DNA of 64,000 bases from Prorocentrum cordatum (GCA_963575745.1 CAUYUJ010000148.1:1-64000), one strand, 5' to 3'; counted from the stretch's first letter, positions 15,030 to 58,600 are shown. A program made the numbers and translations. The notes: generated by a model not told the origin, from the sequence alone.

Positions 15030-18000
15030 GCCGAGAGGGCCATCGCAAGCAAGCAAAGAACCTTCTCTCCGCAACAGGCAGCCACTCTCCGATAAGCCAT
15101 GCGTGAGCTTGCCAAACACGACTGCCTTCTAGACCTCAATTGTCCTACGCCTGCTCAGACCTGAATGTCGCCAGAACTTGGACAGCCTGTCGAAGTCGGC
15201 ACGCGCCGCGCCCACGCGGCGACTGAGTTCGTTGCCCGCGGCGCCTATTCCATACATCGAAGCACCCTCATATCTTCTTGGGCTGGGATGACGTTTCCAT
15301 TCGAATCACGAATACTGCTGGCGCATCTGCTTTACAGAAGCTGGCATTTGCCCGGGCACAACTCCATGTGTTAAGATTTCCCAGATCTCTGCGTAGCAGC
15401 AAAGATGTGTTCCACCCCCCGCTTCATCCTTCCCAGAATCAGCGCGTCGTCCGCGCGCGGCAGGACGGCGATGGATCCGATGTCCTAGAGAGCTGGGTGC
15501 CATGCTGCAAGTTGGGAAATATCGTCTTCGATCTTTCTTGTCATGGTCATCACGAACAGGAAGGGTGATAGAAGGCATCCTTGCGATATCCCAGACGACA
15601 GCGGCCTCGAGGAAGAAGCCGCCCCGCTGTCCCGCACCTCAAAGAGCCTGTCGCTGCAAATCGCCTCGATTGCCTCCACTGCGTGCTCGGGCAAGCCGGG
15701 AGGTCGCGGACCGGGCAGCATGGCCAACGGGCCGACGGAGTCGAAAGCTCCCTGCCAGTCCAAGGCTAATGCGTACACATCACCTGATGATGTACCCACC
15801 TCCAAGTCCATAGGCCGACGGGGCGCAAACATTGCCTCTTGCGCCCCATGGTCCGATCGAAAACCAAATTGCGATCCCGTCGGCCTGGATTCTGCCCCTG
15901 CCTCCACCAAGCGTCGGCGCAGCAAAAACGCGAATACTTTGCGCCCAATCGCGCGAAGACTGGTTGGTCGATAATTCGCCCAATCGTCTGGTTTCCTTTG
16001 TCGTGCATTGCTGTTGGCCCATGCTGTGCGCCATCCTTGCGGCGCCCTTCGCCCTTGCCAACGGCGGTCCGCAAAAGTCGCGACGCGTTGCAACGCCCTC
16101 TAGTCGTCTGCAAGTGCTGCGAAGCCAATTCTCATGCACCACCACCGCCCGCAACAATAGTTTACCGCAAAAAAAGGGTCAGGGGCAGGGTCACCGCGGC
16201 GCAGCTCGCAGCTCGCAGACGCCATGGGGAGTTCCTGAAGCAGAAACAGAGCTTCTTGGTGGTGGTGAACAATATCGCTCCTCTTGGTAACCACACTTTT
16301 ATACACTACCACCGCGCGTGCTTTGATGAAGTCTGTTACGGCCCTTAAGAGAGAGGGGGCAGCCCGGTTGCCGTTGGCGGCGGGAGGGGGGCTGCGGGCT
16401 TTTCACCGTCGCAAAACTGCACCAAGTCGCATCGCAGATGATTCTCGATCTTGGTGGGGGTAGTCATCTACTGTGCTCAGAAGTGCCTTCCAATATTCTG
16501 GCGGGTTGCCGTCTGGCCCAGGTGCGCTGCCATCGCGCAGCTGGCGAAAACGTGCCCTGACCTCGCCGCCCGCGAAAAGGGCAAATTGGCCAGCAGCGCG
16601 CGTCCGAAGGCGGGTGCGTCGGAAACGTCGGCTGGAAGCGCGCCCCATTGCACCGTCTCGAGGCATGTTGCCATGGCGTCTGCTCGGACTTCGCTGATGA
16701 CTCGTTATCCTTACAAGTTCCGGGCCCGCCCCTGCTTGGCGAAACGGGTACCTCGGGGCTTCCTGATGCTATCCCAGGAACCAGGCGCCGCCAAATCATC
16801 CAACTAGTTGGGCTTATCTTCTCGTGCAGATTTTCGCGCAGCCGCGTGTTTCTCCTTCTCCTGCGCGGCGTTCCCGCCCGCTCGAGCCTGCGCTGTTTCT
16901 TGGATGGGCTGCGCTGCCCGGCCGCTGATCCACAGTTGTCTGGCTCGGGGTGGCTCGCGCGGCAAGACCTCGGCTGCAGTCTCGATCGCGGCCGGGGCGG
17001 CTTGCCGGGCGCCGTCGATCGCGTCGGCGGCGCCCGTGGCGTCCTCCGCGCAGTTCTGCAATAATGCCGTAACAGTTTGATGTCGTATACCCGGTGTTTG
17101 CGAACTCCTTCTGTTTTTGAGCGCGGTGTCGACGTGGCTGAGAATGCTGAAAATCGAGGTCGATCTGGCAACGCATTGCGAGCAGCCGCGTGGCCAGCGC
17201 TCCTTCGCGGCGGCAGCCACCAGGCGCCATTCGGTCAAAACTTGCGCCCGGCACGAGAAACAAATCGAGCAAAGCAAATTCGGCAACATGAAATCGCTGG
17301 GTGTTCGGCCGCTCTCCACGCATGCAACCCGTTGCCCGTCTGTCACGCTCTGAAAACTGCTGCTGATGCTGCGCTGCTGCGCCGTGCAGAACTCCATCAC
17401 TCGATCCCGTTTGGGCGACTCTTCTGTGCGTTTCGCGTCTGCTCCAAAAAAACGCAGTTCAAGCGCGCGTTCTTCGCTTCGCCATTGTTGGCCAAGCCGG
17501 GCGTTGAAGTCCCCAGCGATGCGTTCGAATCCATTCGCCGATATGATACTGGACAATTTTTCCAAGTCCAGGTAAATGCGCAATCGTTCGGGGAGTGGTC
17601 GGAGGGCGCGCGGGGCGTGGCCGGCGATTATCCGCCGGCTTGAACCTGCTTCCCCGTATCTTCAGGCGAGCGAGCCGGTCTGAATCTTGCAAGATGCCAC
17701 AGATGGACGGCAGTATCTCACTCCTGATCTAGGTTTGTCTGCGCTGCCTGCAGTTTCCGAGCCCGCCAAAATAATAAAGCGCCCATCGCTCGCGCAGCAC
17801 TCTGCATTCGAACCCCGCGTCTCCTGGGGGCAGAGGACATCGACGTTTAAAACACGCTTTGCCTCGCAAAGCTTCTCGTTGGTTAAGCCAGCGACGTTCC
17901 ACGCGGCGATTCTGACGCGCCCGCATTGCGAGCTCGAGGCTCCGCGCGGGCGCGGGCGCGGGCGCCGCAACGGCGCTGAACAACGATGGGGTGACAGTCC

Positions 18001-18900
18001 TCGCCCTCCGGGCCCCGTCACTTCCCCCCGTTCTCCCCTTCCCCTTGGCGCGCGTCAGTGGCGCGGGGCGGTGCTCTCTCGCTGGACGTGCGGGGCGCAA
18101 TCAAAGTCGCATCGTTTTGGAGGTCAGCCCAATTCTCCCATTCTGCACAGTGTCGTCTGAGCTTGAGTGCATGGTGAGCTTCTCGTCGTCATATCTAGAA
18201 AGCTTCGGAGCGCGCGCGGTCCCTCTGTGAGCTTCTCTCGCCCCATGTCGGCGTGCGTGGTAAGCTTCTCGTCGTCGATCTGGACGAAGGCCAGGAGCTG
18301 CTGAGGGCCGAATAGCATCTGGCTCGGGATCCTGACAGAGGCTGGCTAATTTTTATGTGGCCAGACCCTTTTGTTCTTGCAATTAACTGGTGAAGCTCGT
18401 AACATGCGCAGCGCTGTCTCTGCATCTCTGTCGTCGCTCATCTTTGCAAAGCCCCTTTGTAGATACCGCCTTTCATGCAGATGCCACTTGGCGCTGGCAT
18501 GTTTGACTTGGCCATCCCCTGTTTGAGAAATGCGACTGCCTCTTCCACCGATGCCAGTTCCTCCAAGCCCCCAGGGACAATCGTCTCAGTTGCCTGTTGT
18601 GGGGCGCGGCGTAGGTCGGCAAACTCCAAAGATCCGAGGCGCACTTCGACCTCAGGGCTCAATCAGGTATCTGACGCCGTCAGATAATGGCCGCGAGGGG
18701 TCAGCTTCGATTGCAGTCACTCGGGCTTCCACATGTCCCAACGAAGCCTTCAGCGGTGACACGGCAGCTTGACGATTACGTTGAAAAGATCTGTGGCTGT
18801 TGATGGCCGCGAGGTCCATCCGAATAGGCTTCAGGAGCTTCTGGGTCGCCTCTAACGTCGCGGGCGTGCTTGAAGATGCCCTTGCAACAGCACGTTCGTG
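15030..18900 (-). mobile_element. Degenerate LINE (RTE-like): ORF1 remnant, APE endonuclease, reverse transcriptase
   Basis: Endonuclease motifs RIAAWNVAGL...DVLCPQETR (about 17815-17920) and AGDFNARLG (about 17490-17517). RT motifs GSAPGPDG, NYRPTSL, QFGFR, LDWQGAFDSV, GISQGCLLSPFLF, LPRADDAL (degenerate YADD, 15443-15460) and ELSRRVGAARADF. An ORF1-like, possibly coiled-coil region lies at about 18100-18900. Confidence 0.9.
16118..16480. mobile_element. About 360-bp SINE/MITE-like element, copy 2, inserted in the LINE RT
   Basis: 6-bp TSD aagtgc (16112-16117 and 16481-16486). Excision rejoins EYWKAL|ADD*RALQRVATF in one frame. Confidence 0.85.
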
Positions 18901-19589
18901 CTGCCGTTGACGTGCTGCTGGGAGATATTCGGAAGCCAGTGCAAGAACCCCGTCCATATCATTCAGCGGGCTGTGAATCATTATCGCATTTGCTTTGGGC
19001 TTCCCTGGTATTGGGGTCCACGGTGGCGAAACAAGTGGGAAACATCCATCACTGAACACCTGCCTGACACGGGTGCCTGGCACGCGCGCGTCCCCATTCG
19101 CACCCGAAGCACACATCGCTGCAGGCATGCTCGCGCGAGAAGGTTGGATGAAGGGGACGTAGCGATGAAGAGAAAATGCAAGTGCTAGCCAGGTGTGGTC
19201 AGTGAAAGATAAATGTGCCTGACGTGATCCAATGCACGCGTTCCAAAATTGAGCGAAACGCTGTGGGCACCGTGGGCCAGGGGCACATTTAGCACCCCCC
19301 GCCGGTCGGGGCCCATGGGCGGCACAAACATTTGTATACACACACGCACACGCACGCGCGCACACACAAACACACACAGACACACACACACACACACACA
19401 CACGCACGCACGCACGCACGCACACACGCACGCAGGAACGCACACACGCACATGTTTTTTTTCCCACGTGTCCTGGTTTACATGTCTCCCACATCTCTCC
19501 TTCCCATATTTATTCCACATTTTTACGACTCCCAGGTTCGTTTTTTTTCCGGCGTTTCGAAGTTGGGCGGAAGGGGGGCGACCGCTGGT

Positions 19590-20789: not shown

Positions 20790-20980
20790 GCTGCAGCCGC
20801 AGCCGCAGCCGCAGCCGCAACTGGCCACAGCCACAGCCACCGCCACAGCCACAGCCGCAGCCACAGCCGCAGCCACAGCCGCAGCCACAGCCGCAGCCAC
20901 AGCCGCAGCCACAATCGCAAGTGCAATCGCAGCCGCAATGGCAATCGCAATTGCAACCGCAGCCTGAGCACCGCAGCCAC
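20790..20980. repeat. (GCCACA/GCCGCA)n hexanucleotide repeat
   Basis: Direct reading. Confidence 0.9.
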
Positions 20981-24695: not shown

Positions 24696-24709
24696 TGCGG
24701 TGACCAGCA

Positions 24710-26567
24710 CGAAACGCTGGGCGGGGGAGACGCCTGTGGATACCGCCACTAGGGCGTGGAGTTCCCTATGGGGGAAACGCTGTACTGATTTGGGGAGACG
24801 CATGCGAACGGATCATTGATTGAGGCCTTCGGTGGGGCTCCATGTGGGGCTGCGAAAGGCTGTATTGGGTGGAGGAAACGCATGTGGACGGTTCCACTGT
24901 GACTTTCGGTGGGGCACCCGATAGGGCCACGAAGCGCTGTACTGAGGGAGAAACGCATGTGGACTTTGCCACCGAGGCCTTCGGTGGAAATCCCTATAGG
25001 GCCACGAAGCGCTACACTGGGTGGGGGAGACGCATGTGGACGGCGCAATTGAAGCTTCCACTGGAGCTCCCCATGGAACCACGAACCGCTGTGATGGGCG
25101 GGGGAGAAGCCTGTGCACGGGTCCATTGGGAGCTCGGTGGAGCTCCCTCTGGGGCCACGAAGCGTTGTACTGGGCAGGGGAGACGCATGCCAATGCAGCA
25201 ACTGGGGCCTCCGGTGGCGCGCTCCCCATGGGGCCACGAAACGCCGTGCTGGGTGGGGGAGACGCACGTGGACACCGCCGCTGGGGCCACGACACGCAGT
25301 GCTGGGTGGGGGAGACTCATGGGGACACCGCTGCTGGGGCCTTGAGTGGACCTCCCTGTGGGGCCACGAAGCGCCGTGCTAGGTGGGGGAGACGCATGAG
25401 GACACCACCACTGGGGCCTTGGTTGGACCTCCCTATGGGGCCAAGAAGTGCCATGCCTTGCTGGGTGGGGGGAAACGCATGTGGACACCGCCACTGGGGC
25501 CTGGGGTGGACCTCCCTATGGGGCCACGAAAGCCGTGCTGGGTGGGGGAGATGCATGTGGACACCGCCACTGGGGCTGTGGCTGGACATCCCTATGGGGC
25601 CAAGAAGTGCCATGCCTTGCTGGGTGGGGGGAAACGCATGTGGACACCGCCACTGGGGCCTGGGGTGGACCTCCCTATGGGGCCACGAAAGCCGTGCTGG
25701 GTGGGGGAGATGCATGTGGACACCGCCACTGGGGCTGTGGCTGGACATCCCTATGGGGCCAAGAAGTGCCATGCCTTGCTGGGTGGGGGGAAACGCATGT
25801 GGACACCGCCACTGGGGCCTGGGGTGGACCTCCCTATGGGGCCACGAAAGCCGTGCTGGGTGGGGGAGATGCATGTGGACACCGCCACTGGGGCTGTGGC
25901 TGGACATCCCTATGGGGCCACGAAGCGCCGTGCTGTGTGGGGAAACGCATGTGGGCACCGCCATAGGGGCCTTGGGTGGACCTCCCTATGGGGCCACGAA
26001 AGGCCGTGCTGGGTGGGGGAGGCTGGGGCCACGAAGCGCACTGCTGGGTGTGGGAGGCGCATGTGGACACCGCCACTGAGGCCGTGGGTGGACCTCCCCA
26101 TGGGGCCACGCAGCGCCGTGCTGGGTGGGAGAGACGCATGCGGACACCGCCGCTTGGGCTTTGGGTGGACCTCCCTATGGGGTCACGAAACGCCGTGCTG
26201 GGTGGGGGAGACGCATATGGACACCGCAACTGGGGCATTGGGTGGAATTCCCTCTGGGGCCACGCAGCGCCCGCCGTGCTGGGTGGGGGAGACTCATGGG
26301 GACACCGCCACTGGGGCCTTGGGTGGGCGTCCCTATGGGGCCACGAAGCGCCGGGCTGGGTGGGGGAGACGCACGTGGACACCGCCGCTGGGGCCGTGGG
26401 TGGACATCCCTATGGGGCCACGAAGCGCAGTGCTGGGTGGGGGAGACGCATGTGGACACCGCCACTGGGGCCTTGGGTGGACCTCTCTATGGGGCCACGA
26501 AAGGCCGTGCTGGGTGGGGGACACGCATGTGGACACCGCCGCTTGGGCCTTGGGTGGACCTCCCTAT
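24710..26567. repeat. About 77-bp minisatellite (shorter relative of the 99-bp array, opposite strand) with a 159-bp higher-order triplication
   Basis: ggggcca recurs at 26414 and 26491. ccaagaagtg recurs at 25441, 25600 and 25759. Confidence 0.95.
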
Positions 26568-26743
26568 GATGATGCTGCTGATGATGCTGCTGATGATGAT
26601 GATGCTGCTGATGCTGATGATGCTGCTGATGATGCTGATGATGATGATGCTGATGATGATGATGACGACGAAGGAAGGAGGGAGGGAAGAAACGCGGGGG
26701 TCGTCTCTTCAAAACGAGGACCCAACATCACAGGATGGTTGCG
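24710..26743 (-). mobile_element. Non-autonomous element: hairpin head at 26690-26743, (CAT)n linker, 77-bp minisatellite
   Basis: gtctcttcaaaacgaggacccaacatcacaggatggttgcg is the reverse complement of the 8641 head, and the layout is the same. Confidence 0.6.
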
Positions 26744-26749
26744 AAATAA

Positions 26750-27444
26750 CCCCAGACGGCCCAAGAGGCCTCCAAGAGGCCTCCACGAAGACCAGAAAAG
26801 GCCAAAGTCATTGATGTTCCGTAGGTTGTCGGATGACTTTGGTATTTGCTTCTTTTCGGCCTACCGACGGCCCGAGACGGCCCAAGAGCTCCAAAAGTTC
26901 GCCCCAAGATCGCTGAAGAGGCCTCCAGGATGGCCCCAGAACGGCCCAAGAGGCCCCCAAAACGACCCCAAGAGGGCCCCAAGACTGCCCAAGAGGCCTC
27001 CAAGATGCCCAAGATGGCCCTGGAGCACCCAAACCCAGGAGAGCCCCAAGTCGGCCCAGAGAGGCCCCCAAGACGGCTTCCGACGGGCCATGAGCCCATC
27101 ACGACGGCCAAAGAGGCCCCCCAGAAGCCCCCAAAGGCACCCAAGTGGCCCAAGGCGGGCCCCAAGATGCCTCCAAGAGGCTCCCAGGAGGTCCCAAGAG
27201 TGTGCCCAGAGGCTCCCAAGATTCCTCCGCCTCTTCCTCCTCCTCCTCCTCCTCCTCCTCACTCCTCCTCCGCATCCCCAAGTGTTCCCCGCCGTCCTCC
27301 CCAAAGTGATCCCCGAAGAGTTTCCACAACGGTTGGGGGAACACATGGTCCGATAGCTTGGCAGAGCTCTTGCCACAACGCTCGGCCACATGGACGATTC
27401 TAGAAGGCAGGGGGCGGCGGTGATTCGCCGTAGGCGTCTTCGAT
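26750..27444 (+). repeat. CCAAGA/GGCC-rich composite repeat, 3' part with conserved tail
   Basis: ccaagaggcc / ccaagacggc units ending in cagggggcggcggtgattcgccgtaggcgtcttcgat. Confidence 0.8.
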
Positions 27445-29439
27445 AATGCCAACGTCCCAATCTGCGCTGATGATTCCAATCCGCCCCCGCATGATATTCC
27501 CAGATGCGCGAAGGCAGCGCCGAGACGCACCGACGCGACACTGATATATCCCAGTATGATAGAAAGGGCGCTGGCCGCAGGGGGCAAAGCCCTTACGGAT
27601 AATGTTACGATGGAATTGGCTCCAAACATGTTGTGGTAACTCTGAAGCTTCTGGCGGCCCTAAGACATTCCTGGAAAATGTGGGACGCATCGTTACCATT
27701 GATTCTCTCTCTTCTGAGTGAAAGGAACGGAAGCAGAGGTGGAAGGATAGGCATAATGAATCAACATCGGATCGGAACGTGTGCCAAATCAGGCTGCATC
27801 GGCACGGAATCGAAATCGAATATGATCGGCTGCGCCAGGATGCGCAGCAACGCCGTGCGAGCGTTGGGCCGCATCGGATCTCGGGAACATCTGAATTGGA
27901 TCGGAATGGGACGGCTAGAACCGATATCGAATCGGATCGATCGGACCCTCTGGTCGATCCGATTAGATATCTGTTCCCAACCCCTTCCCCTGCTCGTGCT
28001 CCCCTGCTCGTCGCTCGTCCTACTCCGCCTCCTCATCACCTACTCGTCCTTGCCCTGCTCGTCCTCATCCTGCTCGTCCTTATCCTGGCATCCGATGAGA
28101 TATCGATCCTTTCCCTGATCGTCCTCCCCCTCCCCCCAAGGTCCCCAGGGTGAGGCGGACGACGAGCAGGGGAAGCGGAGGCCCTCTCGCCCCCCCCCCC
28201 CTCCCCCCCGACTGCCGGAGGAAGCTCCTCCGAAGCGCCGCATCAAGCTCCTGGCCCCTCTCGAGGGAGCGGACCGCGGCCGCGTCCGCGACCTCGGCGG
28301 CACGACGGGCGAAACCGCCCCCCTCCCCCCCACTCCATCCTCCTCGCGCCTCCTCCTCGTAGGGGAACAATTTTTACGTCGCAGCGCGGCAGGGGCAGGC
28401 GCTAATCCTCACAGGGGAGCAAACAATAACATAAACATACGAACTCTGAGGTCCGCGCGGATTCCTTGGATCGGCGCTGGAGGCCCCCTGGCGGCGCTTC
28501 CGGCGCCGCACCTGGCGCGCTCCTCGCGCCATGGAGGGGGGTCCAGTGTCGATCCAAGAATTTCGCGCGGCCCTTAATGTTCATGTCATTGCTTGATCCC
28601 CGATCTCAATGGAACAGAAGTCACCAGCATAAGCATGACTTCCTGAGGCACGAGTGATGGCATGCTGCGACTGGCTCAGGATACGTGCCATCGGCGGCGA
28701 GCGAGGCGGGGAAGTAAGAATGAGAATGCCATCTCAGAAGGCGGAGGAGCTTCGCAGAAGCCCTGACGCCTTCTGAGAGATTTGTTGTCTTCGGGGAAGG
28801 CTTAGACAACTTTTCAAGACGCCAGGGGACTTCCGAACCGTCTTGGAAGGCCTTCTCCTTATCACGTTCCCCCCGCTTGCCGCCCATACCAAGAAGTCTG
28901 ACGCATCTAGCGGCCATCGGCACTTGCCGCAGGCAGCTGGACAACGGTGGCAACCTGCCGCAGGCAACTGGACGACGGTATAAGATGACCTTACAGGCCA
29001 TCTACGCAGGTCATCCAAATCCGCGCACCCGCGATGCGCGACGATCCTCGCGACCGCGCGCCGCCCTTTTCTGCAGATGGGCAGCCGCTCTGGCCCAGGC
29101 CGCGGATCGCGCGATGATCATCGCGCCCTCATGGGTAACTTGCGCCATCGCGGACGCCTGTCTCGGGCTGGCTCGTCCTCCTCCTCCCCCCCCTCTCCTC
29201 CTCCTCCTCCACCTCCACCTCCTCCTCTTCCTCCTCCTCCTCCTCCTCCTCCTTCTCCTCCTCCTCCTCCTCCTCCTCCTCGTCCCCCTCCTCCTCCTCA
29301 TCCTCCTCCTCCTCCCCCTCCTCCTCCTCATCATCCTCCTCCTCCTACTCCGGCCCAGACTGCGGCGCGCAGTTCTCTTCGCTCCCTGGCGGGTAACATG
29401 CGCCATCGTGGACGCCCATCTCGGGGGGGAAGACAAGGA

Positions 29440-29615
29440 AGGATAGCAAAGGGCAGGGTAGAGACTCAGCTCACGTAGCTGGGTATCCTGGCGCCTTCTG
29501 GCGCTGGGAGGCGCCCATGGAAGTATGGAGGAATGGGCCCGGCGGCGGGGCGAAAACCAGCTGTATGCAGCAGATTTCGTAACCTCCTCTTTCCCCATCC
29601 TCCCCTCTCGTCTGG
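29440..29615. repeat. About 175-bp dispersed repeat, copy 1 (copy 2 at 42845-43015)
   Basis: Shared ggatagcaa...cacgtagctg...gaggaatgggcccggcggcgggg...gcagcagatttcgtaacc...tttccccatcc. Confidence 0.85.
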
Positions 29616-30064
29616 CCCGACTGTCTCAGGGCGGCTCGGAGATTTACACCTCGACGCGCCACTGGGAGAATATTGACGTTCCACCCGCCCTGGGGCATGC
29701 GCCCCCGACGGACAGTTTCATGCTATTATCCGCCACCGTGCCATCAGCACGTAGTGGAGTGACCCACGGCACATGCAACACTGGGATGTAGAGGGGTCGT
29801 GAGGTTCTTGAAGGCCCGTACCCTGGCTTTCCAGGTGGTCCCGAGCGGTCCCGGCCCCAAGAGGCCCCCACAAGGCCCCCACAATGCTCCAAGAGGCTCC
29901 CAAGAGGACCCCAAGGGGCCACAAGAGGCCCCGAAACACCTCCCCAGAATTTTCGAAACTGCCTCCAGGAGGCCCCCGAGAGGCCTCGACGGGATCCCAA
30001 CGACCATCCACGAGACCTCAGACCCACAACCCAAGCACGGTGGCGGGATGGGCCGAAGGCTATT

Positions 30065-32090
30065 AATCCGCCGCCCCCTGTCGATTCATCGCAGGGGTGC
30101 CTGGCGTGCCGAATGGTTCTTTTTCCAAAAGAACTCCCCCTGGGACTTCGGCCCGTCCCGCCGGGGTCCTGGGAGATTCCCGAAAATCCATCTGTCAATG
30201 CCTTTGCTGCCCCAAGTTGGCCCAAGATGGCCTCCAAGATGGCCACGATGGCCCAAGATGGCCTCCAAGGTGGTCCAAGATGGCCTCCAAGTCCGCCCAA
30301 TATGGTCCGAGACGGCCTCCAAGACGGCCCAAGAGAGTCCAAGACGGCCCAAGAGGCCAGAGGCTAAAATCAGTGACTGTCCTTAGGTGTTTGAAGGATT
30401 TTGGAATTTGCTTCTTCTCGGCATTCCGACGGCTCAAGACGGCCCAAGAGGCCCCCAAGATCGCCCAAGAGGCCCCCAAGAGGGCCCCATGACGGCCCAA
30501 GTGGCCTCCAACACGCCCAAGATGGCCTCCAAGACGTCAAGATGGCCTCCAAGACGGCCCCGAAGCGCCCCAAGAGGGTCCCAAGTCGGCCCAGAAAGGC
30601 CCTCAAGATGGCTCCCTACGGCGTCAGACGTGCCAGGAACCCACCAAGATGGCAGAAGTTGGCTCGAAGCTTGCCCAAGACGGCCCAAGAGGCCCCAAGA
30701 GGGCTTCCAGGAAGGCCAGCAGAGGCCAAACACATTGAGGTTCCTTAGGTTTTTGACGGAGTTTGACATTTGCTTATTCTCGGCCTTCCGACTGCCCGAG
30801 ACGGCCCAAGAGCCCCCAAAAATCGCCGAAAGATCGCTGAAGAGGCCTCCAGGATGGCCCCAGAACGGCCCAAGAGGCCAACAAGACGGCCCCAAGAGGA
30901 CCCCAAGACTGCCCAAGAGGCCTCCAAGACGCCCAAGATGACCCTGCAACATTCCAAGGGGGCCCCAAGTCGGCTCATAATAGAGGCCCCCCCAACGGCC
31001 TCCGACGGCGTCAGACGAACCAGGAGCCCACCAAGGCGGCCGAACATGGCCCTAAGATGGCCCAAGACGGCCCAACGAGGCCTCCAGACGGCCAAGATGA
31101 CCTTCAAGATGCCCACGTGTTCCCCGAAGGTTTTCCAAACCGATTCGGGGAACACATGGTCCGATAGCTTGGCAGGTCTGGCCTCAACGTTCGGCCACAT
31201 AGGCGCTTCCAAAAAGGCAGGGGGCGGCGGTGATTCGCCGTAGGCGCCTTCGATCTGCCGCCCCCTGTTGATTCATCACAGGAGTGCCTGGCGTGCTGGA
31301 TGTCTTACGTTCGGGTGCTGGCTCTTTTTCCAAAAAAGAACTCCCCCTGGGGCCTCGGCCCGTCCCGCCAACTGCCTGCCTCATCGGCACCTTCGCTCAA
31401 GATGGCCCAATATGGCCTCCAAGATGCCTCCAAAACGGCCAAGATGGCCTCCAAGACAGCTAAGATGGCCTCCAGACGCCTCCAAAACGGCCCAAGATGC
31501 ACCCAAGACAGCCGAAGATAGCCTCAAGAAGGCCCAAGACGGCCTAAGAGGCGTCCAAGAGGCCTCCAAGAGGCCTCCAAAATGGCCCAAGAGGCATCCA
31601 AGAGGTCCTCCAGAAAGGCCCGAAGAGGCCAACATCATTGATTTCTTTTGGGCTTTTGAACGAGTTTGGGAGTTGCGCCTTTTCGGCCTTCCGACGGCCC
31701 CAGACGGCCCAAGAGGCCCCCAAGGTCGCCCCAAGATCGCCCTAGAGGCCTCCAAAATGGCCCCATGACGGCCCAAGAGGCCCCCAAGACGGCCCGAAGA
31801 GGGCCCCAAGGCGGCCCAAGAAGCATCTCAGACGCCCAAGAGGGTTTTCCAGACGGCCCTGAAGCGCCCCAAAAAGGCCCCAAAACGGCCCAGCGAGGCC
31901 CCCAAGACGGCTTCCGACCGCATCAGACGGGCCAGGAAGGCCCTGAGACTGCCAGAGAGGCCCTCAAGAAGCCCCCAAAGGCCCCCAAGAGGCCCAAGGA
32001 GTCCCCCAAAAGGCTTCCAAGAGGCCACCAGGAAACTCCCAGGAGGCCCCAAAGAGTGCCCCAACAGGCTCTCACGAGGCCTCCTCCTCC
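30065..32090 (+). mobile_element. Head-to-tail pair of CCAAGA-rich composite elements (30065-31254; 31255-about 32090)
   Basis: Head atccgccgccccctg...ttccaaaagaactccccctggg. Tail cagggggcggcgg is the inverted repeat of the head and is followed by a cgccgtaggcg hairpin. Confidence 0.7.
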
Positions 32091-32687
32091 TCCTCCTCCT
32101 CCTCCTCCTCCTCCTCCTCCTCCTCTCGAACACATCTACAACTACACACAGCAAAACTGCACCTTGTTGCGGAGACCAGGGGTGGCAATCATAATTCGAT
32201 TTGGCGCGTCCGTCGGTCTGGGTGGACGGACACCGCCTCACGACCTACGATGGAAGGTGATGGTCGTGCCGACGACGTTGCGCGCCAAGCGTGGAAGCGA
32301 TCACCACGTTGCACGGCGAGGCTTGGCGGCAGCCGCAAGAAAAATCATAACACGAAAAAGCGCTCACGCTCGGACGGGGAATCCTGCACGAAGAAGAATT
32401 TGAAAGCGCGGGGGGTCGGATCGCGAATTTGCTGCTGGGGCACAGGCGGGGGAGGGAAGCGGGCTGCGAGACGTCGAGGCCCCCAGGCACACGGCTGGCT
32501 TCGCTGAGCCAGGGGATGCGGGATGTCGGTGGGGAGCGGCCCAGGGGGCGGGGCCTCGGCGATGGGCAGCGCCGGCAGCCGATGCTTCGCGAAAAGGGGA
32601 CACGCACAAAACGGCACTTAGCGGCCGGGGCGCGGGACACGTCGGGGGCGCGAGTGGCGGCCCCCGACATGCACCCCGCCCCGCCGG

Positions 32688-32835
32688 CTAGGTGTAGTTC
32701 TATAAGTGCTCCGTTTTGTGGGGATGTTTCCGGCGAAACCAGCACGTACAGAACTACACCTAGTGCCCGGCTAAGTGTAGTTCTGCACGCGCTGGATGTC
32801 TCGCGCGGGGCGAGCACGTACAGACCGGCACCTAG
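32688..32835. repeat. Two tandem hairpin (MITE-like) units, about 83-bp period
   Basis: ctaggtgtagttct (32688-32701) and agaactacacctag (32750-32763) form a perfect inverted repeat. A degenerate second unit lies at 32771-32835. Confidence 0.75.
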
Positions 32836-34530
32836 CGAAAGGGGCGGGGTACACGTCGGGTACGTCGTCGCGCCCCGCCAGCAGAGTCAGGAAGGCAAGG
32901 GCCGCTGAACCCCCTGCCTGCCTCCGGGCGGAGGTGTCTGAACGTCCCGGGGCTATCAGAAGGAATTCCAACTGCGGCCTCCGCGCACATCGCTCCCCCT
33001 ATCAGAGTATCTCGCCTGGTCACTATGTTCACCATTCCCCCCCGTCCTTTGCCCTCCCACCCCCCGTTTTTCCTCTACCTGCCGCCCTCCATCTCCCTGA
33101 GCGTTTCCTACTTGCCCCTGGCCCCTGAGTGGCGGCAAACGCCCGCGCCCCCCCGCAGCTGAAAGACTCACCTTGCGCTCATGCTCCAATCCACTCGCGA
33201 GGCGCAAGCCTTGGTTCCAGACTGACAATGGCAAGAGACGCCGAGGCCCCGGCAAATCCAACAGGCGCGATCGGCCCCCTCGAATGGCGGGCGAACCAAT
33301 ACGTAAGACGATGTCGCACAAGTAAATTTGGAATTTCGGGATCCGCGCAAGAAGCTAATCCACTCGCCCAAAGTGTAGTTCTATGCCTGTCCGATCCTCC
33401 TCGTCCCCCTCCTCCTCCTCCCCCTCCCCCCCCCGAGAGGCTCCCAAAAAGCCTCCTCCTCCTCCTCCTCCTCCTCCTCCTCCCCCATCCGTCTTCCTGG
33501 TCCTCTTCTTCCTCCTCCTTGTCCTTCTCCTCCTCCTCCTCCTCCTCCTCCTCCTCCTCCTCCTCCTCCTCCTCCTCCTCCCCCTTGTGTTCTTCGAAGG
33601 CTTTCTACAGCGGGCTGGGGAACATCTAGACCGATAGTTTGGGCAAGCTGTGGCCCAACTTTCGCGACCACAGAGGCGCTTTCCAAAAAGGTAGGGGCGG
33701 GCATAAGACGGGCCAGAAAAGCCCAAGACGGCAACAGAGGCCTTCAAGAAATCTTGAAGGCCGCCAAGAGCCCCAAGGAAGGAGGCTCCCGGGAGGCCTC
33801 CAAAAGACCCTCAGAGAGCTCAGGAGTGACCACAAATGACCCAGGAGGTTCCCAGAAGGTCTCTTTCTCCTGCTCATCCTCCTCCTCCTCATATTCCTCT
33901 TCTACCTGTTCCTCCCTCCCCTCGCTCTCCAATTCCGTCTCCACATTTTCCCCGAAGGCTTTCCAAACCGACTCGTGGAACACATGGTCTGATAGCTTGG
34001 CTAAGCTCTGACCCAAGTTTCGGCCACATAAGCGTTTTGAGAAATCCCTGGGACGGTCAAACAGGTTTCCAAGGACCGCATAATTATCTGGATGTACGGT
34101 AGCTCCGAAGAGGTCTCCAAGAGGCTCCTGAGAAACACCGAGGTTGCACCAATAAGGGCCAAAGAGGCCCAAGAGATGTCCTCCTTCTCCCATTCTTCGT
34201 CTTCCTCCTGTTCCTCCTCCCGCTCCCTCTCCCTCTCACTCTCTCTCATTCTCTCTCTTGCTCGTTCTCGTTCTTTTTCGTTCTCGTTCTCCTCTCTGTC
34301 TCTCTCGCTCTCTCTCTCTCTCTCTCTTTCTCTCTATCCATCTTCATATTCCATCTGCTAATCGTCATCGCGCAGTGGATGATTCATGCTGACCCACATT
34401 GGAAATTTGATGTGGCCATCGAGCGATGAGTCCGCAATGTCACGGCATCTCAGTGAAACTGCATGCACGGCTATGGGCTTGTGAAACGCTCGCGTTGTGA
34501 GCGGGGCTGCTCACGACGCATGGCCGTGAC

Positions 34531-36630
34531 AATCCGCCGCCCCCTGTTGCCTCATCGCAGGGGTGACCGGCATGCTGAATCCTCTCGCTTTTGGTGTTGT
34601 TGGTTTTTTCCAAGAGAAATTCCCCTGGGGTTGCGGCCCCGCCCGCCGGGGTCCCAGAATGGCCCGGAAAGATCCCGGAATGGCCCGGAAAGGGTGGTTC
34701 CAAAGTTCCTCCTGCTCCAGATGGCTCCAGGATGGCCCAAGATGGTCCAAGATGGCCTCCAACACGGCCCAGGAGAGACCAAGATGCCTCCACGTTCGCA
34801 CAAGAAACCTCTCAGACGGCACAAGACGGCCCCAGAGGCCTCCAAGAGGCCTCCAAGACGGTCCAAGAGGCCTCCAAGAGGTCCTCCACGAGAGCACGAA
34901 GAGGTCAAAATCAATGTGCTCCTCAGGTTTTGAAGGGTTTTGGCTTTTGTTCTTTTCGAGCCTTCCGACGGCTCACGACGGCCCAAGGAGCCCGAAAGAT
35001 CGCCACCAGAGCGCCCAAGAGGCCTCCAAGATGACCCCATGACGGCCCAAGAGGCCTCCAAGACCCAAGACGGCCCAAAGAGGGCGCCAAGGCGGCTCCA
35101 GAGGCATCCAAGACGCCCAAGACGGTCTCCAAGACGGCCAAAATGGCTTCCAACACGGTCAAGATGAGCTTCAAGACGGCCAAGATGGCCGCTAAGACGG
35201 CCAAGATGGCCCAAGATGGACCCGAGAGGTTCCAAGATTGCCACAGAGAAGTCAAAGAGGTGCTCCAGAAAGGCGCGAGGGAGCCAACATCTTAAACTTT
35301 TCTCAGGTGTTTGAAAGATGGTTGTGTTTCCTCGGTGTTGGTGTTCCGACCACCTAAGACGGCCCAAAGAGTCCCCAAACTAGTCCCAGGGGCCTCCCAG
35401 ATTGCTCCAGAACGGCCCAAGAGGCCTTCAAGCCAGCCCCGAGAGGGCCCTAAGAAGGCCCAAGAGGTCTCAAAAACGGCCAAGGTGGTTTCCAAGATAC
35501 CTCAAGACTGCCAAGATGACCTCCAAGACGACCAAGATGGCATCCAAGACGGTAGAAATATCCCCAAGAGAGCCTATGGTGGCCCAAAAGGCGCCCAATA
35601 TACCTCCAAGACAGCCCAAGATGCTTCCAAGACGTCCACCAGGAATGCCCGAAGAGGCCACAATCATTGATTGTCCTTTGGCTTTGAGGGATTTATGCGT
35701 TTTCTTCTTTTCAGCTCTCCGACGGCCCAAAACGGCCTCCAAGATGGCCCCATGACAAGCCAAAAGGCCCCCAAGAGGGCCCCAACATGACCCCAAGACG
35801 GCCCAAGAGGTCCCCAAGACGCCTAAGATGGCCTCCAAGACGGCCAAGATGGCCTCCAAGATGCCGCCAAGACGGCCAAGAAGGCCGCCAAGACGGCGAA
35901 GATGGCCCCAAGATGCACCCACGACGGCCCTGGATGGCCTGAAGATGACCTTCGACTGCCCAAAACGCCCGCCTGAGGCCTCCAAGACGGCCCAAGACCC
36001 TCCAAGACGTCCTCCAGGAGGCCCGAAAGCTCGGACACCTGGTCCGATACCTCGCCCGACTCCGTGTTCCTCGAAGGCGTTCGAAACCCACTCGGCGAAC
36101 GCGTGGCCCGACAGCTTGGCCGGGCTCAAAACCCAACTTTCGGCCACGCAGGCGCTTCCAAAAAGGCAGGAGGCGGCGGCGATTCGCCGTAGGCGTCTTC
36201 GATAAGATCCGCCGCCCCCTGTGCTTGTCACCAGGGTGCCCGGCGTGCTGGATCCTCTCGGTTCTGGTTTTGGTTTTTTTTTCCAAAAGAACTCTCCCAT
36301 GGGGCTTCGGCCCGTTCCGCCAGCCACGCGGAAGCTGCGCCAGTTAACCCCTTTCACGCCCACATGGCCCCAAATGGACTCCAAGATGCCTCCAAGACGA
36401 CCAAGACGGCTCAAGATGGCCTCCAAGTCCAAGATGGTCCAACACGGCCACCAAGACGGCACCAAAGTCCAAAATGCCTCCAAATCCGCCCAAAAAGCCT
36501 GTAAGACGGGCCAAGACGGCCCAAGAGGTGCCCAAGAGGCCTCCAAGACGGCCCAAGACGCCTCCGAGAGGTCATCCGTAAATCATTTATAATCCGTTGG
36601 TGTTTGAAAGATTTTCGTATTTGCCTTGTT
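34531..36630 (+). mobile_element. CCAAGA-rich composite elements (34531-36203; the next copy starts at about 36207, is interrupted at 36631 and resumes at 39685)
   Basis: Same head and tail modules as 30065-31254. Tail-head junction at about 36168-36220. Confidence 0.7.
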
Positions 36631-36631
36631 T

Positions 36632-50860: not shown

Positions 50861-50879
50861 CAACGAAGCGAGCCCTGGA

Positions 50880-54731: not shown

Positions 54732-56149
54732 CGTGTGTGTATGTATGTATGTATGTGCGTGAGTGCGCGTGTGTGTGTAAGGTGTGTGTGTGTGTGTGCG
54801 CGCGTGCGTGTGTGAGTGTATGTGTGCGTTGATGTGTTTATGTGTTTACGTGTATTCGTGCGTGTTCGGGGCAGTTGGGTGCACAAAAAACCCTCAACCC
54901 CTGCCAGGACCCTTGGATCATCAGGTCGGGCGTGGGGATCCTGGCTGGGGATGGGGGTGAATTGTGCTGTCCGCAGACGTACACAGTGACACAAGCGCGC
55001 GCACGTATAGCACGCAACACACTGACGCATCGCACGTGTGCGCGCGCACGCTTGTTCCTCCGACGCTCGGGTAGCGCAACCGCAGCGAATGATAGCATGG
55101 GGCACAATCTTTCGTGAATTGCACCAGGCGTTGCAAGAGGGTGGTTGCGCTAGGCGCGCGGGCGTGCCAAAACAAATGCTCCAAATGGGTGGCCGGGCAG
55201 CGAAACCAGCGCGCGCGGACGCGCAGGGATGCTAAGATCCCAGGCGCGGACAGCAAAATGAATAATGGATCGAAACCGCACAAAAGCGCAAGCACACGCA
55301 CACGCACACGCACACGCACACGCACACGCACACACACACACACACATATAGAGAGAGAGGGAGAGATACACACAAAATATGAGTGACAGCCAGGCGGCGG
55401 GGTCGAGCGACAGCCCTGGGATCGCTTTGAGATATTGATCTCTCTGGCCAGACCCCTTGTAACTTCCTCTTCTGGGCCATCGCAGTTGCGAGAACGCACC
55501 GAACCATTTAAAACTGCAGCACTGACATGTGCGGGCCTCGAGGACCGACAGGATCCGCATCCATCGAAACGACCGGCGCGGCCAGGACATCGAAAGGTGA
55601 GACCCGCACCAAGCAGTGCACGCACAAAATTGTTTGAGGACTCGCCAGACTATCGCAGAAGCGTTGCGGGCGGACTGCAAAGCCGAGGGTAGCAAGAAGG
55701 AGGAAGTATGCAACAATTGCGCTGCGACGTGATACGGCCTCAAAGTCCGACTCCTGCCTGTGCCGGCTATTCACCGTAAGCGCATCCATGTTAGGCCAGG
55801 CGGCGGACGCGAGCGACGTCCTTGAGATCGCTCCTGCATCTCGATCCTTCTGGGTCAGGCCCCGTTTAACTCCCTCTGTTCGGCCATGGCAGCTGCTAGA
55901 GCTCACCGAACCTTTCAAAGCCCGCGCACTCGCGGACCTCGCGGGCCGACAAACGACAGGGCCCGTTCCGGGCGTTAACTTGCAACCGTCGGAACGACCG
56001 GCGCGGCCGCGACAACGGGCGGGGGGGCCCGCGTCAAGCGGCGCGCGCGCAAAATCGTTCGAGTCCACCGCAATCTCTGAATGCCCAAACTCCTCGCGCT
56101 TCTGACTCTGGCCCCCGCAGCGCCGACTCAACCCTGGCCCCCTCGTCGG

Positions 56150-56960
56150 CGGCCTTTGCTAGCGCGGCGGGCCCCGGCCCGAGCGAGACAGGTGCTCGCG
56201 CGGCAGTTGACAGCAGCTCCGTCTTCGAATAAATCGACGCAGCGCGTTGGGAGCTCAAGCGGCCATCGCGCCGGCAAGGTCGCCCGGCCGCAAATATTCA
56301 CGGGCGGCCCCTCCTCGCCGCAGACTGCAGGGCGAGAGGCGGAGATGCTGACGACCAATCTCCCGAAGGCCAGCGCGGAACACCCGATCGAATAGCGCGA
56401 GGGGGCAGGAGCCAGAGGCGCAAGGAGGGGCCAGAGGCGCGGTTGATGGCCCATGCACGGGGGCGCGACGGCCCCATGCATGGGCCATCAACCGCGACGT
56501 TTTCTCTCGGACCATTCTGGCTAGACGTCTTTTTCTCATGGCAGGGGCGCCGCGCCTCGGCCACCGGCCCCAACCTTCATCGCAGCACTCGCGACGCCCA
56601 GAGCCTCGCCCTTGCGCGGGCGGAAATGCAAACCCAGCAAGGATGGCAGCGGCGAGCGCGATCTCGCCTCGGGCGAACGCCCAGCCAGCAAGCGCAGCGC
56701 ACGCCCGGGCAGACGTGGGCGGGGCGCGGGACGGCATTGCCAGGCGGCCCCAGACTGAAAGCAGCCTCCAAGCGCCTGGGGCTTGGCGGCGTGTCTCAAG
56801 CAAATGATACACTCCGCTCAGCGCGTAGTTGCCCTGGCCCTCAGCGGCGCTGCCCGCCCGAGGGCGCTCGAAAAAACTGGAAATTGGTGGCGGCCACATC
56901 GTGGACAAACTGCTGAGCCACACGCGGGCATCGCTTCAGTGCCTGGGCTCCGACCTGCGC
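56150..56960 (-). pseudogene. Tyrosine recombinase, frameshifted
   Basis: RAPP box, GF...RxGE box I remnant, SLRRGGA box II and downstream AASIY. Confidence 0.8.
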
Positions 56961-57029
56961 GTCGCCCAGCCTCCACGGGCCAGCCCTGGCGGCACGCCTG
57001 GCGGCCAGCCCCGCGGTTCACCCGTCGGC

Positions 57030-57500
57030 AAAGCGCGACGGCGATCCCGTTGGGTTCTTGGCTGACGACGCGCTGTTCGCGAGCTTCCAGGCTGAGATGC
57101 TGCGCGCCACCTGGTTGAGCTGCCTGCTGCTGGAACGGCGCCTCGAGAAGGCGACGACGTTGACCGTCCTATCGACGAGGCGCGAGCCTGCGCGCTGCTG
57201 ACGGGCGACCGACCTCGCGCGCCACTGCATCGCCATCAGCGCGCCCTGGCACTCCAGGACATTGATGTGCTGCGCGGCCCCCCCGCGCCAACTGCCCTGC
57301 CTTTCACCGCTGCAAGAAGAGGGCGTCAAACTCCTGCCTGGGGAACGCTTTGGCAAGAACTTCTGAATTCCTTCCGCTTTCAAATCTGCGCCGTTGCGAT
57401 GGCGGGCCGTCGCCGGGCCCGGCGCAATGCTCCGCGACGCGCCTGTGTCGCGCCATTCAGCATGCCCACGCTTCGCAAGCTCAGCGAGCAGCACGTCGGC
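57030..57500 (-). pseudogene. DIRS-type RNase H-like domain
   Basis: QHINVLECQGALMAMQWRAR...LVDRTV...RRSSSRQLNQVAR...KNPTGSPSR. Confidence 0.75.
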
Positions 57501-57879
57501 CTGGCGCGGCAGTTCTGGCGGGCGGCGGCACAGAAGCGGCGCGCCCCGCAGCTCGCCTTGGGCCTCCAGTTGCTGCGGCTGCGACTGAAGCCAGCTGGCG
57601 TCGACCGCCACCGCGTCCTCTCGCGGGCGCCGAGGGGCCACCGCAAACGGGTTGCCCCGGCGCGAGGCGGCCGCCGCCCAGCGTCGGGGGCCGCGGAGAA
57701 CGTGCGCGGACGCGCCGTGCTTCCCCAGCGCCACAAAGCGGCGCTCCGCGAACTCTTCGCGCCCGCGCCGCACCAACGCAGCGCCCCCGGCCCAGTCGGC
57801 GGCTGCCGCCCCAGGAGCGCGCGCTGGCGCGGGGCTCCTCGAGCGGCGGCGCGGCGGCCACCGGGCGCGCGACTGCCGC

Positions 57880-58600
57880 CCAGTGGCTGACCAGCCAAGC
57901 CACCACTTCGCAATGGAAAGATCGACCGATGATTTGCACAAGGCCCCATGCTTGTCGGGCTCCGCCTTGGCCTCGCTGCTCGTCGTGCAGGGCGCCGCGT
58001 GCCCTTTTTGAAAGCCCATCAGCTTCTCGCGAACCCAGGCGCAGGGCAGCCCCACCCGCCCATGGGGCCAGTGCGCGCGCCACTTGCCACGAAACTGGAA
58101 CGGCGAGGCCGCGACGCGAAAGGGCTTGGTTGGGCCGTCGAGCGCTCCCCGATGCCCGCAGGCCTGGGGCGCGGCTGGCCGCGAGGGGTCAAGGGCATGA
58201 GCGCGGGGGGCGGCTCTCCGCCTGGGGCCCCTGGGCAGCGCGCGCCCCGCGTCGCCCGCTCCCCCGAAGGGGGGCGCGGGTCCATGAGCTGCGCGCGCCA
58301 AGCGCTCCGCGCGCCCTCTACCGACCTCGCCATCACGACGGTCGACTCAGCCTCCAAGGTCGGCAGCAGGCCCTGCGACGCCCAGTGGAGGCGCGGCCGC
58401 TTGACCCGGCCGAAGTCGCCCGCCTGATTCACGGGGAACGACTCGAAGAAAACTAAGCGGCTGAGGCAAGGAACGTCCCTCTCCACCATCGACGCTGCGT
58501 TTTCCCAGAAGAAATCGATCCGAGCCTCTGGTAGCTCCGGCTCCAGGCCAGCCGCAGCCCTCAACTGGTGCTGCACCAGGCCGGCCCGCGGATCGGCCAG
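57880..58600 (-). pseudogene. C5 cytosine DNA methyltransferase domain (motifs VI, VIII, IX, X), frameshifted; motifs I and IV not found
   Basis: ENV-like, RxR and GNS-like motifs occur in the correct order across three frames. Confidence 0.75.

What the first reader, a model, noticed from the sequence alone, without database searches (positions are those of the whole stretch)
15030..58600. Directional T>C / A>G erosion of TE catalytic motifs (opposite of CpG decay or RIP)
Seen, compared with family consensus motifs. In the RTE-like LINE, LYADDT reads PRADDA (ccg cgc gcg gac gac gcg, 15443-15460), YRPISL reads YRPTSL, TWNV reads AWNV and CLQET reads CPQET. In the YR element, ENV reads ENA, GHT reads GHA and PYSLRRGGAT reads PCSLRRGGAA. 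Each change is explained by T>C or A>G, and several create CpG from TpG/CpA. Repeat B1 also differs from B2 mostly by G-for-A and C-for-T. Established: dinoflagellates replace part of their thymine with 5-hydroxymethyluracil. Inference: a repeat-targeted T>C hypermutation process, possibly linked to 5hmU, could inactivate TEs and raise GC content. The ancestral residues are assumed from consensus.
Basis: partly seen in the sequence, partly recalled or inferred. Interest (0 to 1): 0.75.

Follow-up and report, generated by a model that had tools for sequence, protein, structure and literature searches.

The report
AT-to-GC biased decay of dead transposons
Two dead jumping genes in a GC-rich dinoflagellate-like genome have lost their key residues mainly through T-to-C and A-to-G changes, a real and measurable bias that most likely reflects a pressure towards G+C acting on the whole genome, not a weapon aimed at repeats.

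Summary
The cited motifs are in the sequence. Homologues confirm the assumed ancestral residues for YRPISL, LYADDT and PYSLRRGGAT. TWNV and CLQET are only weakly conserved. ENV and GHT could not be checked.

I polarised the whole LINE relic and the recombinase relic against conserved columns of homologues. Of 86 unambiguous single-step changes, 41 are T>C or A>G and 14 are C>T or G>A. That is about 5.5-fold per site (p 4e-9). The bias is strand-symmetric, hottest at TpA, and shows no CpG decay. Paralogous contigs from a public run show the same asymmetry, in transversions too.

"Repeat-targeted hypermutation" is not shown:
- Three tandem arrays in the same window have a near-symmetric spectrum.
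- The candidate B1/B2 repeats differ symmetrically.
- T>C/A>G is only 48% of changes.
- The LINE relic has the same GC (0.597) and TpA deficit as the rest of the window (0.603).

The closest named relative belongs to Prorocentrum cordatum, reported as the GC-richest dinoflagellate. My best reading is ordinary decay under a genome-wide GC-ward bias. A link to 5hmU stays open and testable. The look-ups of this scan's earlier notes that I ran found no such finding.

The parts
15087..17925 (-). Dead RTE-like non-LTR retrotransposon (LINE) copy. Endonuclease-like N-terminal part plus reverse transcriptase, broken by stops and frameshifts.
   Evidence: Pfam RVT_1 on 15488-16099(-), E 1e-9. 6484 RT relatives at E<=0.001, best 50% identity. 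A profile of 18 full-length homologues aligns to three frames over profile positions 5-813. Stops and frame changes are seen.
15443..15460 (-). RT active-site box read as PRADDA; the family reads LYADDT.
   Evidence: Y>R needs T>C plus A>G; T>A(la) needs A>G.
15956..15973 (-). YRPTSL; the family reads YRPISL. I>T by T>C.
17818..17904 (-). Endonuclease-part motifs AWNV (17893-17904) and CPQET (17818-17832).
   Evidence: The homologue columns are only moderately conserved.
16112..16480 (.). Nested insertion of a short high-copy repeat (about 369 bp) inside the LINE. A second copy lies at 11937-12343.
   Evidence: An X1 contig joins 16111 to 16481, skipping 369 bases, and depth is 62-134 here against 0-18 in the rest of the LINE relic (15087-17925). 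The in-window pair is 77-88% identical.
11937..12343 (.). Second copy of the short high-copy repeat. Used to polarise changes in the nested copy.
56264..57005 (-). Dead tyrosine-recombinase-like gene (core-binding-domain / integrase family), spread over three frames. It ends before the C-terminal catalytic part.
   Evidence: 10 homologues at E 3e-33 to 3e-10, one named as a Prorocentrum cordatum core-binding-domain protein and one as an integrase. Alignment. Frame-aware profile hits.
56303..56332 (-). PCSLRRGGAA; the family reads PYSLRRGGAT. Y>C and T>A(la), both by A>G.
58022..59131 (-). Open frame holding FFWENAASM (58487-58513). Family unknown, so the motif claim is unverifiable.
   Evidence: No Pfam match, no PDB match, no homologue among 8000 scored candidates. 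Coordinates.
8700..10165 (.). 99-bp tandem array. Control for the substitution spectrum.
24700..26570 (.). 77-bp tandem array. Control.
36670..39200 (.). Two blocks of a 101-bp tandem array (36670-37830 and 38490-39200) with similar flanks (37864-38315 and 39228-39683). These are candidate repeats B1/B2 and also serve as a control.

Best explanation
The window carries two long-dead mobile-element copies. One is an RTE-like LINE with a short repeat nested in it. The other is a tyrosine-recombinase gene relic. The genome is about 60% G+C and dinoflagellate-like; the closest named relative of the recombinase belongs to Prorocentrum cordatum.

Shown: since losing function, both copies have accumulated substitutions under a strand-symmetric regime biased from A/T to G/C. 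It is dominated by T>C and A>G, is hottest at TpA, and has no CpG hotspot.

Inferred: this regime is the pressure that shapes the whole genome's composition (high G+C, half the expected TpA). It could be GC-biased repair of mismatches during recombination, or a mutational bias. It is not a process aimed at repeats. Dead elements merely make it visible, because their ancestral residues can be read from relatives. Catalytic motifs are hit because they are rich in Tyr, Leu, Ile, Thr and Lys codons, which offer many A/T sites.
For: 1. Polarised spectra.
- LINE: 233 conserved columns, 138 unchanged, 54 unambiguous single-step changes. W>S transitions 22, S>W transitions 9, W>S transversions 6, S>W transversions 6.
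- Recombinase: 128 columns, 88 unchanged, 32 single-step changes. The same four classes count 19, 5, 1 and 3.
- Combined transitions are 41 v 14, about 5.5-fold per site, p 4e-9. The bias holds at 90% column conservation (15 v 5).

2. The bias is strand-symmetric: A>G 21 and T>C 20 on the sense strand.

3. Independent DNA evidence from paralogous contigs.
- The window has C/G where paralogues have T/A 107 times v 67 the other way in X1, and 59 v 23 in X2. Transversions are alike: 31 v 19 and 20 v 7.
- Among the 40 best-supported sites, transitions are 19 v 5 and transversions 9 v 2 (my count).
- In the nested repeat, the second in-window copy agrees with the other copies at 11 of 15 sites. That makes the derived changes W>S 9 (5 transitions, 4 transversions), S>W 1 and W>W 1.

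4. The relic matches the background. LINE relic GC is 0.597 and TpA observed/expected 0.47. The other 54,144 bases have 0.603 and 0.50.

5. Other repeats lack the strong bias. In the tandem arrays, W>S is 0.535 and S>W 0.514 per site. T>C is 74 of 1468 cells and C>T 130 of 2992 (summed). The context order is the same as in the relics: TA highest, TT lowest.

6. P. cordatum is reported as the GC-richest dinoflagellate, at 59.7% (PMC11114475, passage). That implies a lineage-wide GC-ward shift.
Against: - The bias in the relics is stronger than what would merely maintain 60% GC. All W>S v S>W is 48 v 23, a per-site ratio of 3.8, p 1.8e-4 against a ratio of 1.5.
- In the protein-polarised data the bias is specific to transitions. 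The transversion ratio is 1.4, and Fisher's test for transitions v transversions gives p 0.03. A pure fixation bias need not behave so.
- The tandem arrays differ significantly from the relics, so the regime is not uniform over sequence classes or ages.
- Unique DNA could not be polarised, so "genome-wide" is inferred from composition only.
- The "rest of the window" may itself be mostly repeat-derived.
Confidence: 0.5

Rival explanations
1. Thymine-modification mutagenesis that acts preferentially on transposons. Thymines in silenced elements are converted to 5hmU, and on to 5-formyluracil. These mispair with G or C at replication, or provoke faulty excision repair. The result is T>C (and some T>G) on both strands, fastest where the modification is densest.
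For: - T>C/A>G is about 5.5-fold over C>T/G>A per site in both relics and is strand-symmetric.
- T>C by context, changed of all such sites: TpA 10 of 17, TpC 11 of 64, TpG 17 of 75, TpT 3 of 39. TA v the rest gives p 4e-4. Conserved Tyr codons are lost in 12 of 13 cases.
- 5hmU is reported to prefer TA and TC in C. cohnii, and to be enriched in and to silence repeats in A. carterae (PMC11572971, passages).
- 5-formyluracil is reported to pair with C and G (PMC2673420, abstract in the listing). That would also explain W>S transversions.
- The relics are more biased than the tandem arrays (v 64).
Against: - TpC is not enriched.
- TpA depletion is equally strong in the non-relic 54 kb, and from general knowledge it is common in genomes without 5hmU.
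- The TpA signal rests largely on Tyr codons.
- At the DNA level only 2 of the 19 best-supported T>C-type sites lie in TpA (my count).
- The LINE relic is not GC-richer than its surroundings.
- No modification data exist for this locus.
- In A. carterae, high 5hmU density marks younger, less diverged copies (PMC11572971, passage). That says nothing about mutagenicity.
Confidence: 0.22
2. Artefact of the comparison or of the assembly. Three routes are possible. The family consensus comes from AT-richer organisms. Short-read contigs under-sample GC-rich paralogues. Or modified bases were miscalled in the assembly.
For: - The protein homologues are only 31-50% identical and mostly of unknown origin.
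- X1 is a small run (547 million letters), and only 40 of 309 variant sites were shown.
Against: - The bias persists in columns at least 90% conserved (15 v 5).
- It includes destructive changes, such as L>P at eight sites and Y>C at five.
- Two independent kinds of reference (proteins and DNA contigs) agree.
- Three X1 contigs match the window without any difference over 816 bases: 15982-16283, 16839-17061 and 18258-18548.
Confidence: 0.1
3. RNA-level editing before reverse transcription. Edited element transcripts (A-to-I read as G, or U-to-C) were copied into DNA, so the changes arose in bursts at the birth of each copy.
For: The LINE replicates through RNA. From general knowledge, dinoflagellates edit transcripts and editing footprints are known in retroelements of animals.
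Against: - A>G (21) and T>C (20) are equal on the sense strand. That would need two editing types of equal strength.
- The nested repeat shows W>S transversions as often as transitions.
- Tandem arrays, which do not pass through RNA, share the same context order.
Confidence: 0.05

Closest known systems
GC-biased gene conversion, and compositional drift of dead repeats towards the host background (described for mammals and other eukaryotes; Duret and Galtier 2009 and Pessia et al. 2012 seen only as entries in reference lists)
   Same: There is an excess of AT-to-GC substitutions in neutral DNA. The process is strand-symmetric. Older substitutions are more GC-biased than young variants (relics v array variants). 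The relic ends up at the composition of the background.
   Different: In the protein-polarised data the bias is confined to transitions and is hottest at TpA. No recombination data exist. In dinoflagellates the process has only been suggested (PMC7299967 and PMC11114475, passages).
Repeat-induced point mutation (RIP) of fungi (from general knowledge)
   Same: Directional transitions destroy repeated elements, with a dinucleotide preference.
   Different: The direction is opposite (RIP is C>T). Here the favoured class is only 48% of changes. Tandem repeats in the same window are spared. Nothing shows dependence on duplication.
5hmU marking and silencing of transposons in Amphidinium carterae (PMC11572971; abstract and passages read)
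   Same: A thymine modification is concentrated on repeats in a dinoflagellate, and TA is a preferred dinucleotide in older work cited there.
   Different: That work concerns transcriptional silencing. The word 'mispair' does not occur in its main text, and of the two occurrences of 'mutation' the one passage I was shown is a general remark on TEs. No mutational consequence is described in the passages I read.
Aberrant thymine-DNA-glycosylase repair proposed for TpG/CpA-to-CpG bias in CpG islands (PMC4041421; abstract start in the listing only)
   Same: A repair-based route to T>C that creates CpG.
   Different: Here TpG is not preferred (17 of 75, against 11 of 64 for TpC). TpA is the hot context.

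Membership tests
Non-LTR retrotransposon (LINE), RTE-like | Reverse-transcriptase domain | tested here: met
   Pfam RVT_1, E 1e-9, 38.9 bits against a cut-off of 29.6. 522 relatives at E<=1e-10.
Non-LTR retrotransposon (LINE), RTE-like | N-terminal apurinic-type endonuclease upstream of the RT in the same element | tested here: inconclusive
   The frame-2 translation aligns to positions 5-421 of a profile built from 18 full-length homologues (164.8 bits). It shows the QET and GDFNA boxes. No Pfam endonuclease family was reported for ORFs of 100 aa or more.
Non-LTR retrotransposon (LINE), RTE-like | Placement in the RTE clade by phylogeny | not tested
I built no tree.
Tyrosine-recombinase mobile element (Crypton or DIRS-like) | Recombinase homology with the conserved box PYSLRRGGAT and the LRTGE box | tested here: met
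   10 homologues. The box is aligned in 9 of 9 that cover it. The LRTGE region is recovered in another frame as HFRPRKGE.
Tyrosine-recombinase mobile element (Crypton or DIRS-like) | Complete catalytic set, including the C-terminal RGRW...Y part | tested here: not met
   The frame ends after PGDLAGAM. The homologues' C-terminal 50-60 residues have no counterpart above noise. This fits a truncated relic.
Tyrosine-recombinase mobile element (Crypton or DIRS-like) | Pfam integrase domain, and linked RT/RNase H (for DIRS) | tested here: not met
   No Pfam family at E<=1 in three frames of 55900-59200. An RNase-H-like look at 57147-57269 is my recollection only.
Repeat-targeted hypermutation (RIP-like) | One mutation class makes up the great majority of changes | tested here: not met
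   T>C plus A>G is 41 of 86 unambiguous single-step changes.
Repeat-targeted hypermutation (RIP-like) | Repeats are affected and unique DNA is spared | tested here: inconclusive
   Tandem arrays lack the strong bias. Unique DNA could not be polarised. The relic's composition equals the background.
GC-biased gene conversion | W>S excess among substitutions, in transitions and transversions alike | tested here: inconclusive
   DNA comparison: ratios are alike, 1.60 and 1.63 in X1 and 2.57 and 2.86 in X2. Protein-polarised: transitions 5.5, transversions 1.4.
GC-biased gene conversion | Strength follows the recombination rate; derived W>S alleles segregate at higher frequency | not testable with these tools
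   No genome, map or population data are held.
5hmU-linked mutagenesis | T>C concentrated in the dinucleotides that carry 5hmU (TA and TC) | tested here: inconclusive
   TA is enriched (10 of 17, p 4e-4). TC is not (11 of 64, against TG 17 of 75).
5hmU-linked mutagenesis | The rate follows the measured 5hmU density | not testable with these tools
   No modification map is available.

The most novel reading that the evidence does not exclude
In this 5hmU-rich lineage, modified thymine is itself mutagenic. T>C (with some T>G) arises fastest at TpA and in heavily marked, silenced transposons. The silencing mark would then double as a slow, RIP-like eroder of transposons running in the opposite direction to RIP. 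It would also be a driver of the exceptional G+C content and TpA deficit of the genome.
Probability: 0.2. Interest if true: 0.8.

Novelty: new member of a known kind. Interest (0 to 1): 0.5.

Why it matters
If the bias is genome-wide, these relics give a first polarised look at the substitution regime that made this the GC-richest known dinoflagellate lineage. T>C would exceed C>T several-fold per site, with no CpG decay despite the cytosine methylation reported in dinoflagellates.

If it is tied to thymine modification, it would show that an epigenetic silencing mark has a mutational cost, or a use. That would be new.

Either way the question is now sharply testable with the whole genome, 5hmU maps and population data. 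My searches listed no paper that reports a polarised substitution spectrum for dinoflagellate repeats.

Tried and rejected
- Whole genome of the window: none is held.
- Metagenome scan with a 20-base pattern from the nested repeat: 9 loci, all chance matches of the pattern alone.
- Closer protein relatives of the RT: none above 50% identity.
- The ORF holding ENA: no homologue and no Pfam or PDB match. The ENV/GHT claims are left open.
- Pfam integrase or methyltransferase in 55900-59200: none at E<=1.
- CpG decay of the other copies as the cause of the asymmetry: rejected. Only 6 of the 19 best-supported sites lie in a CpG of the window, and C>T at CpG is 4 changed v 77 unchanged, like other contexts.
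- One-strand RNA editing of the ADAR type: rejected by strand symmetry.
- Runs X3 and X4 laid nothing useful (0 and 1 records).
- Earlier notes of this scan: none near the finding and none for these words.


Full report
**What is there**

The window is about 60% G+C, and no whole genome is held for it. I scanned 376 stop-to-stop frames of at least 100 residues against Pfam. Above the curated cut-offs this gave only a reverse transcriptase at 15488-16099(-) and a PPR repeat at 63621-63959(-).

The reverse-transcriptase frame carries four in-frame stops over 299 codons. The element changes frame several times. It is therefore a dead LINE copy spanning roughly 15087-17925.

A 369-base piece (16112-16480) is a nested insertion of a short high-copy repeat. 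The evidence:
- One contig of run X1 joins 16111 directly to 16481.
- Depth there is 62-134, against 0-18 in the rest of the LINE relic.
- A second copy lies at 11937-12343.

The frame at 56258-56935(-) has no Pfam match, but it has 10 homologues (E 3e-33 to 3e-10). One is named as a core-binding-domain protein of Prorocentrum cordatum and one as an integrase. A profile of these homologues finds the relic in three frames between 57005 and 56264.

The frame at 58022-59131(-), which holds FFWENAASM, has no detectable relative.

**Are the assumed ancestral residues right?**

- For YRPISL, LYADDT and PYSLRRGGAT, yes. The nearest RT homologues carry the first two. For the third, 9 of 9 recombinase homologues that cover the stretch carry it.
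- For TWNV and CLQET the columns vary (S/T and L/I/M).
- ENV and GHT cannot be judged.

**Is there a direction?**

I replaced the seven hand-picked residues by all conserved columns.

- LINE: 18 full-length homologues, 233 columns with at least 60% agreement, 138 unchanged, 54 unambiguous single-step changes. The counts are W>S transitions 22, S>W transitions 9, W>S transversions 6, S>W transversions 6, W>W 6 and S>S 5.
- Recombinase: 128 columns, 88 unchanged, 32 single-step changes. The same classes count 19, 5, 1, 3, 1 and 3.
- Combined: transitions are 41 v 14. Corrected for the number of sites where such a change would show, T>C/A>G is about 5.5 times C>T/G>A (p 4e-9). Against the ratio of 1.5 that would just maintain 60% G+C, p is 8e-6.
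- The result holds in columns at least 90% conserved (15 v 5).
- A first pass on the RT alone gave 13 v 5.
- On the sense strand A>G is 21 and T>C is 20, so the process acts on DNA and on both strands.

**DNA evidence**

A public run, X1, holds 36% of the sampled words of the LINE stretch. I laid its contigs at 80% likeness or more on 14760-19330.

- The window has C or G where the contigs have T or A at 107 places, and the reverse at 67. For transversions the counts are 31 v 19.
- Run X2, a metagenome, gives 59 v 23 and 20 v 7.
- Of 309 variant places only 40 were shown. Among these, where the other copies are nearly unanimous, I count 19 v 5 transitions and 9 v 2 transversions.
- In the nested repeat the second in-window copy sides with the other copies at 11 of 15 sites. 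This fixes the polarity: W>S 9 (5 transitions, 4 transversions), S>W 1, W>W 1.
- Three X1 contigs match the window exactly over 816 bases, which speaks against miscalled bases there. X1 may be the source sample, so it is not independent proof.

**Context**

- Among sites where a T>C change would alter the residue, the numbers changed are TpA 10 of 17, TpC 11 of 64, TpG 17 of 75 and TpT 3 of 39. TA against the rest gives p 4e-4.
- Conserved Tyr codons are lost in 12 of 13 cases.
- C>T shows no CpG hotspot: CG 4 changed v 77 kept, CC 4 v 83, CT 4 v 42, CA 1 v 56.
- Only 6 of the 19 best-supported DNA sites lie in a CpG of the window. CpG decay of the other copies therefore does not explain the asymmetry.

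**Controls that speak against targeting**

- Three tandem arrays were polarised by their majority unit; 52 of 57 units were kept. They show 46 W>S and 77 S>W transition events, and 22 and 49 transversion events, on 127 A/T and 245 G/C sites. Per site that is 0.535 against 0.514.
- Per cell, T>C is 74 of 1468 and C>T is 130 of 2992 (summed). There is no CpG effect. The context order is the same as in the relics, with TA highest (0.077) and TT lowest (0.021); in the arrays this is not significant (p 0.15).
- The candidate B1/B2 pairs differ symmetrically: 12 v 13, 16 v 13 and 34 v 31.
- The LINE relic has G+C 0.597 and TpA observed/expected 0.47. The remaining 54,144 bases have 0.603 and 0.50. 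The relic has therefore reached the background and not overshot it.
- The recombinase relic (0.693) lies in a block of 0.69-0.72 that extends beyond it.

**Reading**

The proposed mechanism is not shown:
- T>C/A>G is 48% of the changes, not a hypermutation signature.
- Other repeats in the window lack the strong bias.
- Transversions share the asymmetry in the larger DNA data set.
- The background has the same composition as the relic.

P. cordatum is reported to have the highest G+C of any dinoflagellate, 59.7%, against 46-51% in others (PMC11114475, passage). A lineage-wide GC-ward shift must therefore have happened, and old neutral DNA would record it.

Young array variants are nearly unbiased while old relic substitutions are strongly GC-biased. 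Two things could produce that pattern: a fixation bias such as GC-biased gene conversion, or a past change of regime. I put this family of explanations at 0.5.

**What keeps the bolder reading alive**

- In the protein-polarised data the bias is specific to transitions (Fisher p 0.03).
- The bias exceeds what equilibrium at 60% needs (p 1.8e-4).
- The bias is hottest at TpA. According to PMC11572971 (Discussion passage), 5hmU preferentially replaces thymine in TA and TC in C. cohnii, replaces 12-68% of thymidine in dinoflagellates, is enriched in repeats of A. carterae, and silences them (abstract and passages).
- The further oxidation product 5-formyluracil is stated to direct incorporation of C and G (PMC2673420, abstract in the listing). 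That would yield T>G and T>C, both of them W>S. Transversions therefore do not exclude this route.

Against this reading:
- TpC is not enriched.
- The TpA signal leans on Tyr codons.
- TpA is as depleted in the rest of the window.
- No modification map is at hand.

I give it about 0.2.

**Literature**

Searches for dinoflagellate with 5-hydroxymethyluracil and mutation, with biased gene conversion, with mutational bias and GC content, and for 5hmU with transposable elements and mutation rate listed no paper reporting a polarised substitution spectrum of dinoflagellate repeats. GC-biased conversion is only suggested there (PMC7299967 and PMC11114475, passages). Supplements were not consulted.

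**Verdict**

This is a genuine directional decay of two dead elements, most likely the local trace of the genome's general GC-ward pressure. It is a new instance of a known kind of process. A specific and testable alternative links it to thymine modification.

Noticed in passing
window 16112-16480 and 11937-12343: A short repeat of about 370 bases, very abundant in run X1 (depth 62-134). One copy is nested in the LINE and the other lies 4 kb away. Its nature (SINE-like or other) is unknown.
   Followed up: partly
window 8700-10165 and 24700-26570: The 99-bp array and the 77-bp array are distant relatives in opposite orientation (about 61-63% identity over roughly 1 kb).
   Followed up: no
window 8700-10165, 24700-26570, 36670-39200, and the two relics: Neither the array variants nor the relics show a raised C>T rate at CpG. 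Yet the arrays have CpG observed/expected of 0.57-0.73, while the relics are at about 1.0-1.1.
   Followed up: partly
window 26700-42700: Many dispersed short arrays of 21- and 32-base units of the CCCAAGACGGCC type, on both strands, recurring at spacings of about 4 kb.
   Followed up: no
window 57147-57269 (-): Upstream of the recombinase relic, a frame reads HINVLECQ...VDRTVNVVAF. From memory this looks like the RNase H of tyrosine-recombinase retrotransposons. No Pfam match at E<=1.
   Followed up: partly
window 44000-46000: About 2 kb of CTC/CCT-rich low-complexity sequence with extreme strand skew (GC skew -0.79). Similar GGA/CTC runs occur at 3.6, 14.4, 29.2, 33.5 and 60.0 kb.
   Followed up: no
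window 41739-42137: A long pentanucleotide microsatellite of the AGCTT / AGCAT type.
   Followed up: no
window 63621-63959 (-): A PPR repeat match (PPR_2, E 6e-8). It is the only clear host-type protein signal found in the window.
   Followed up: no
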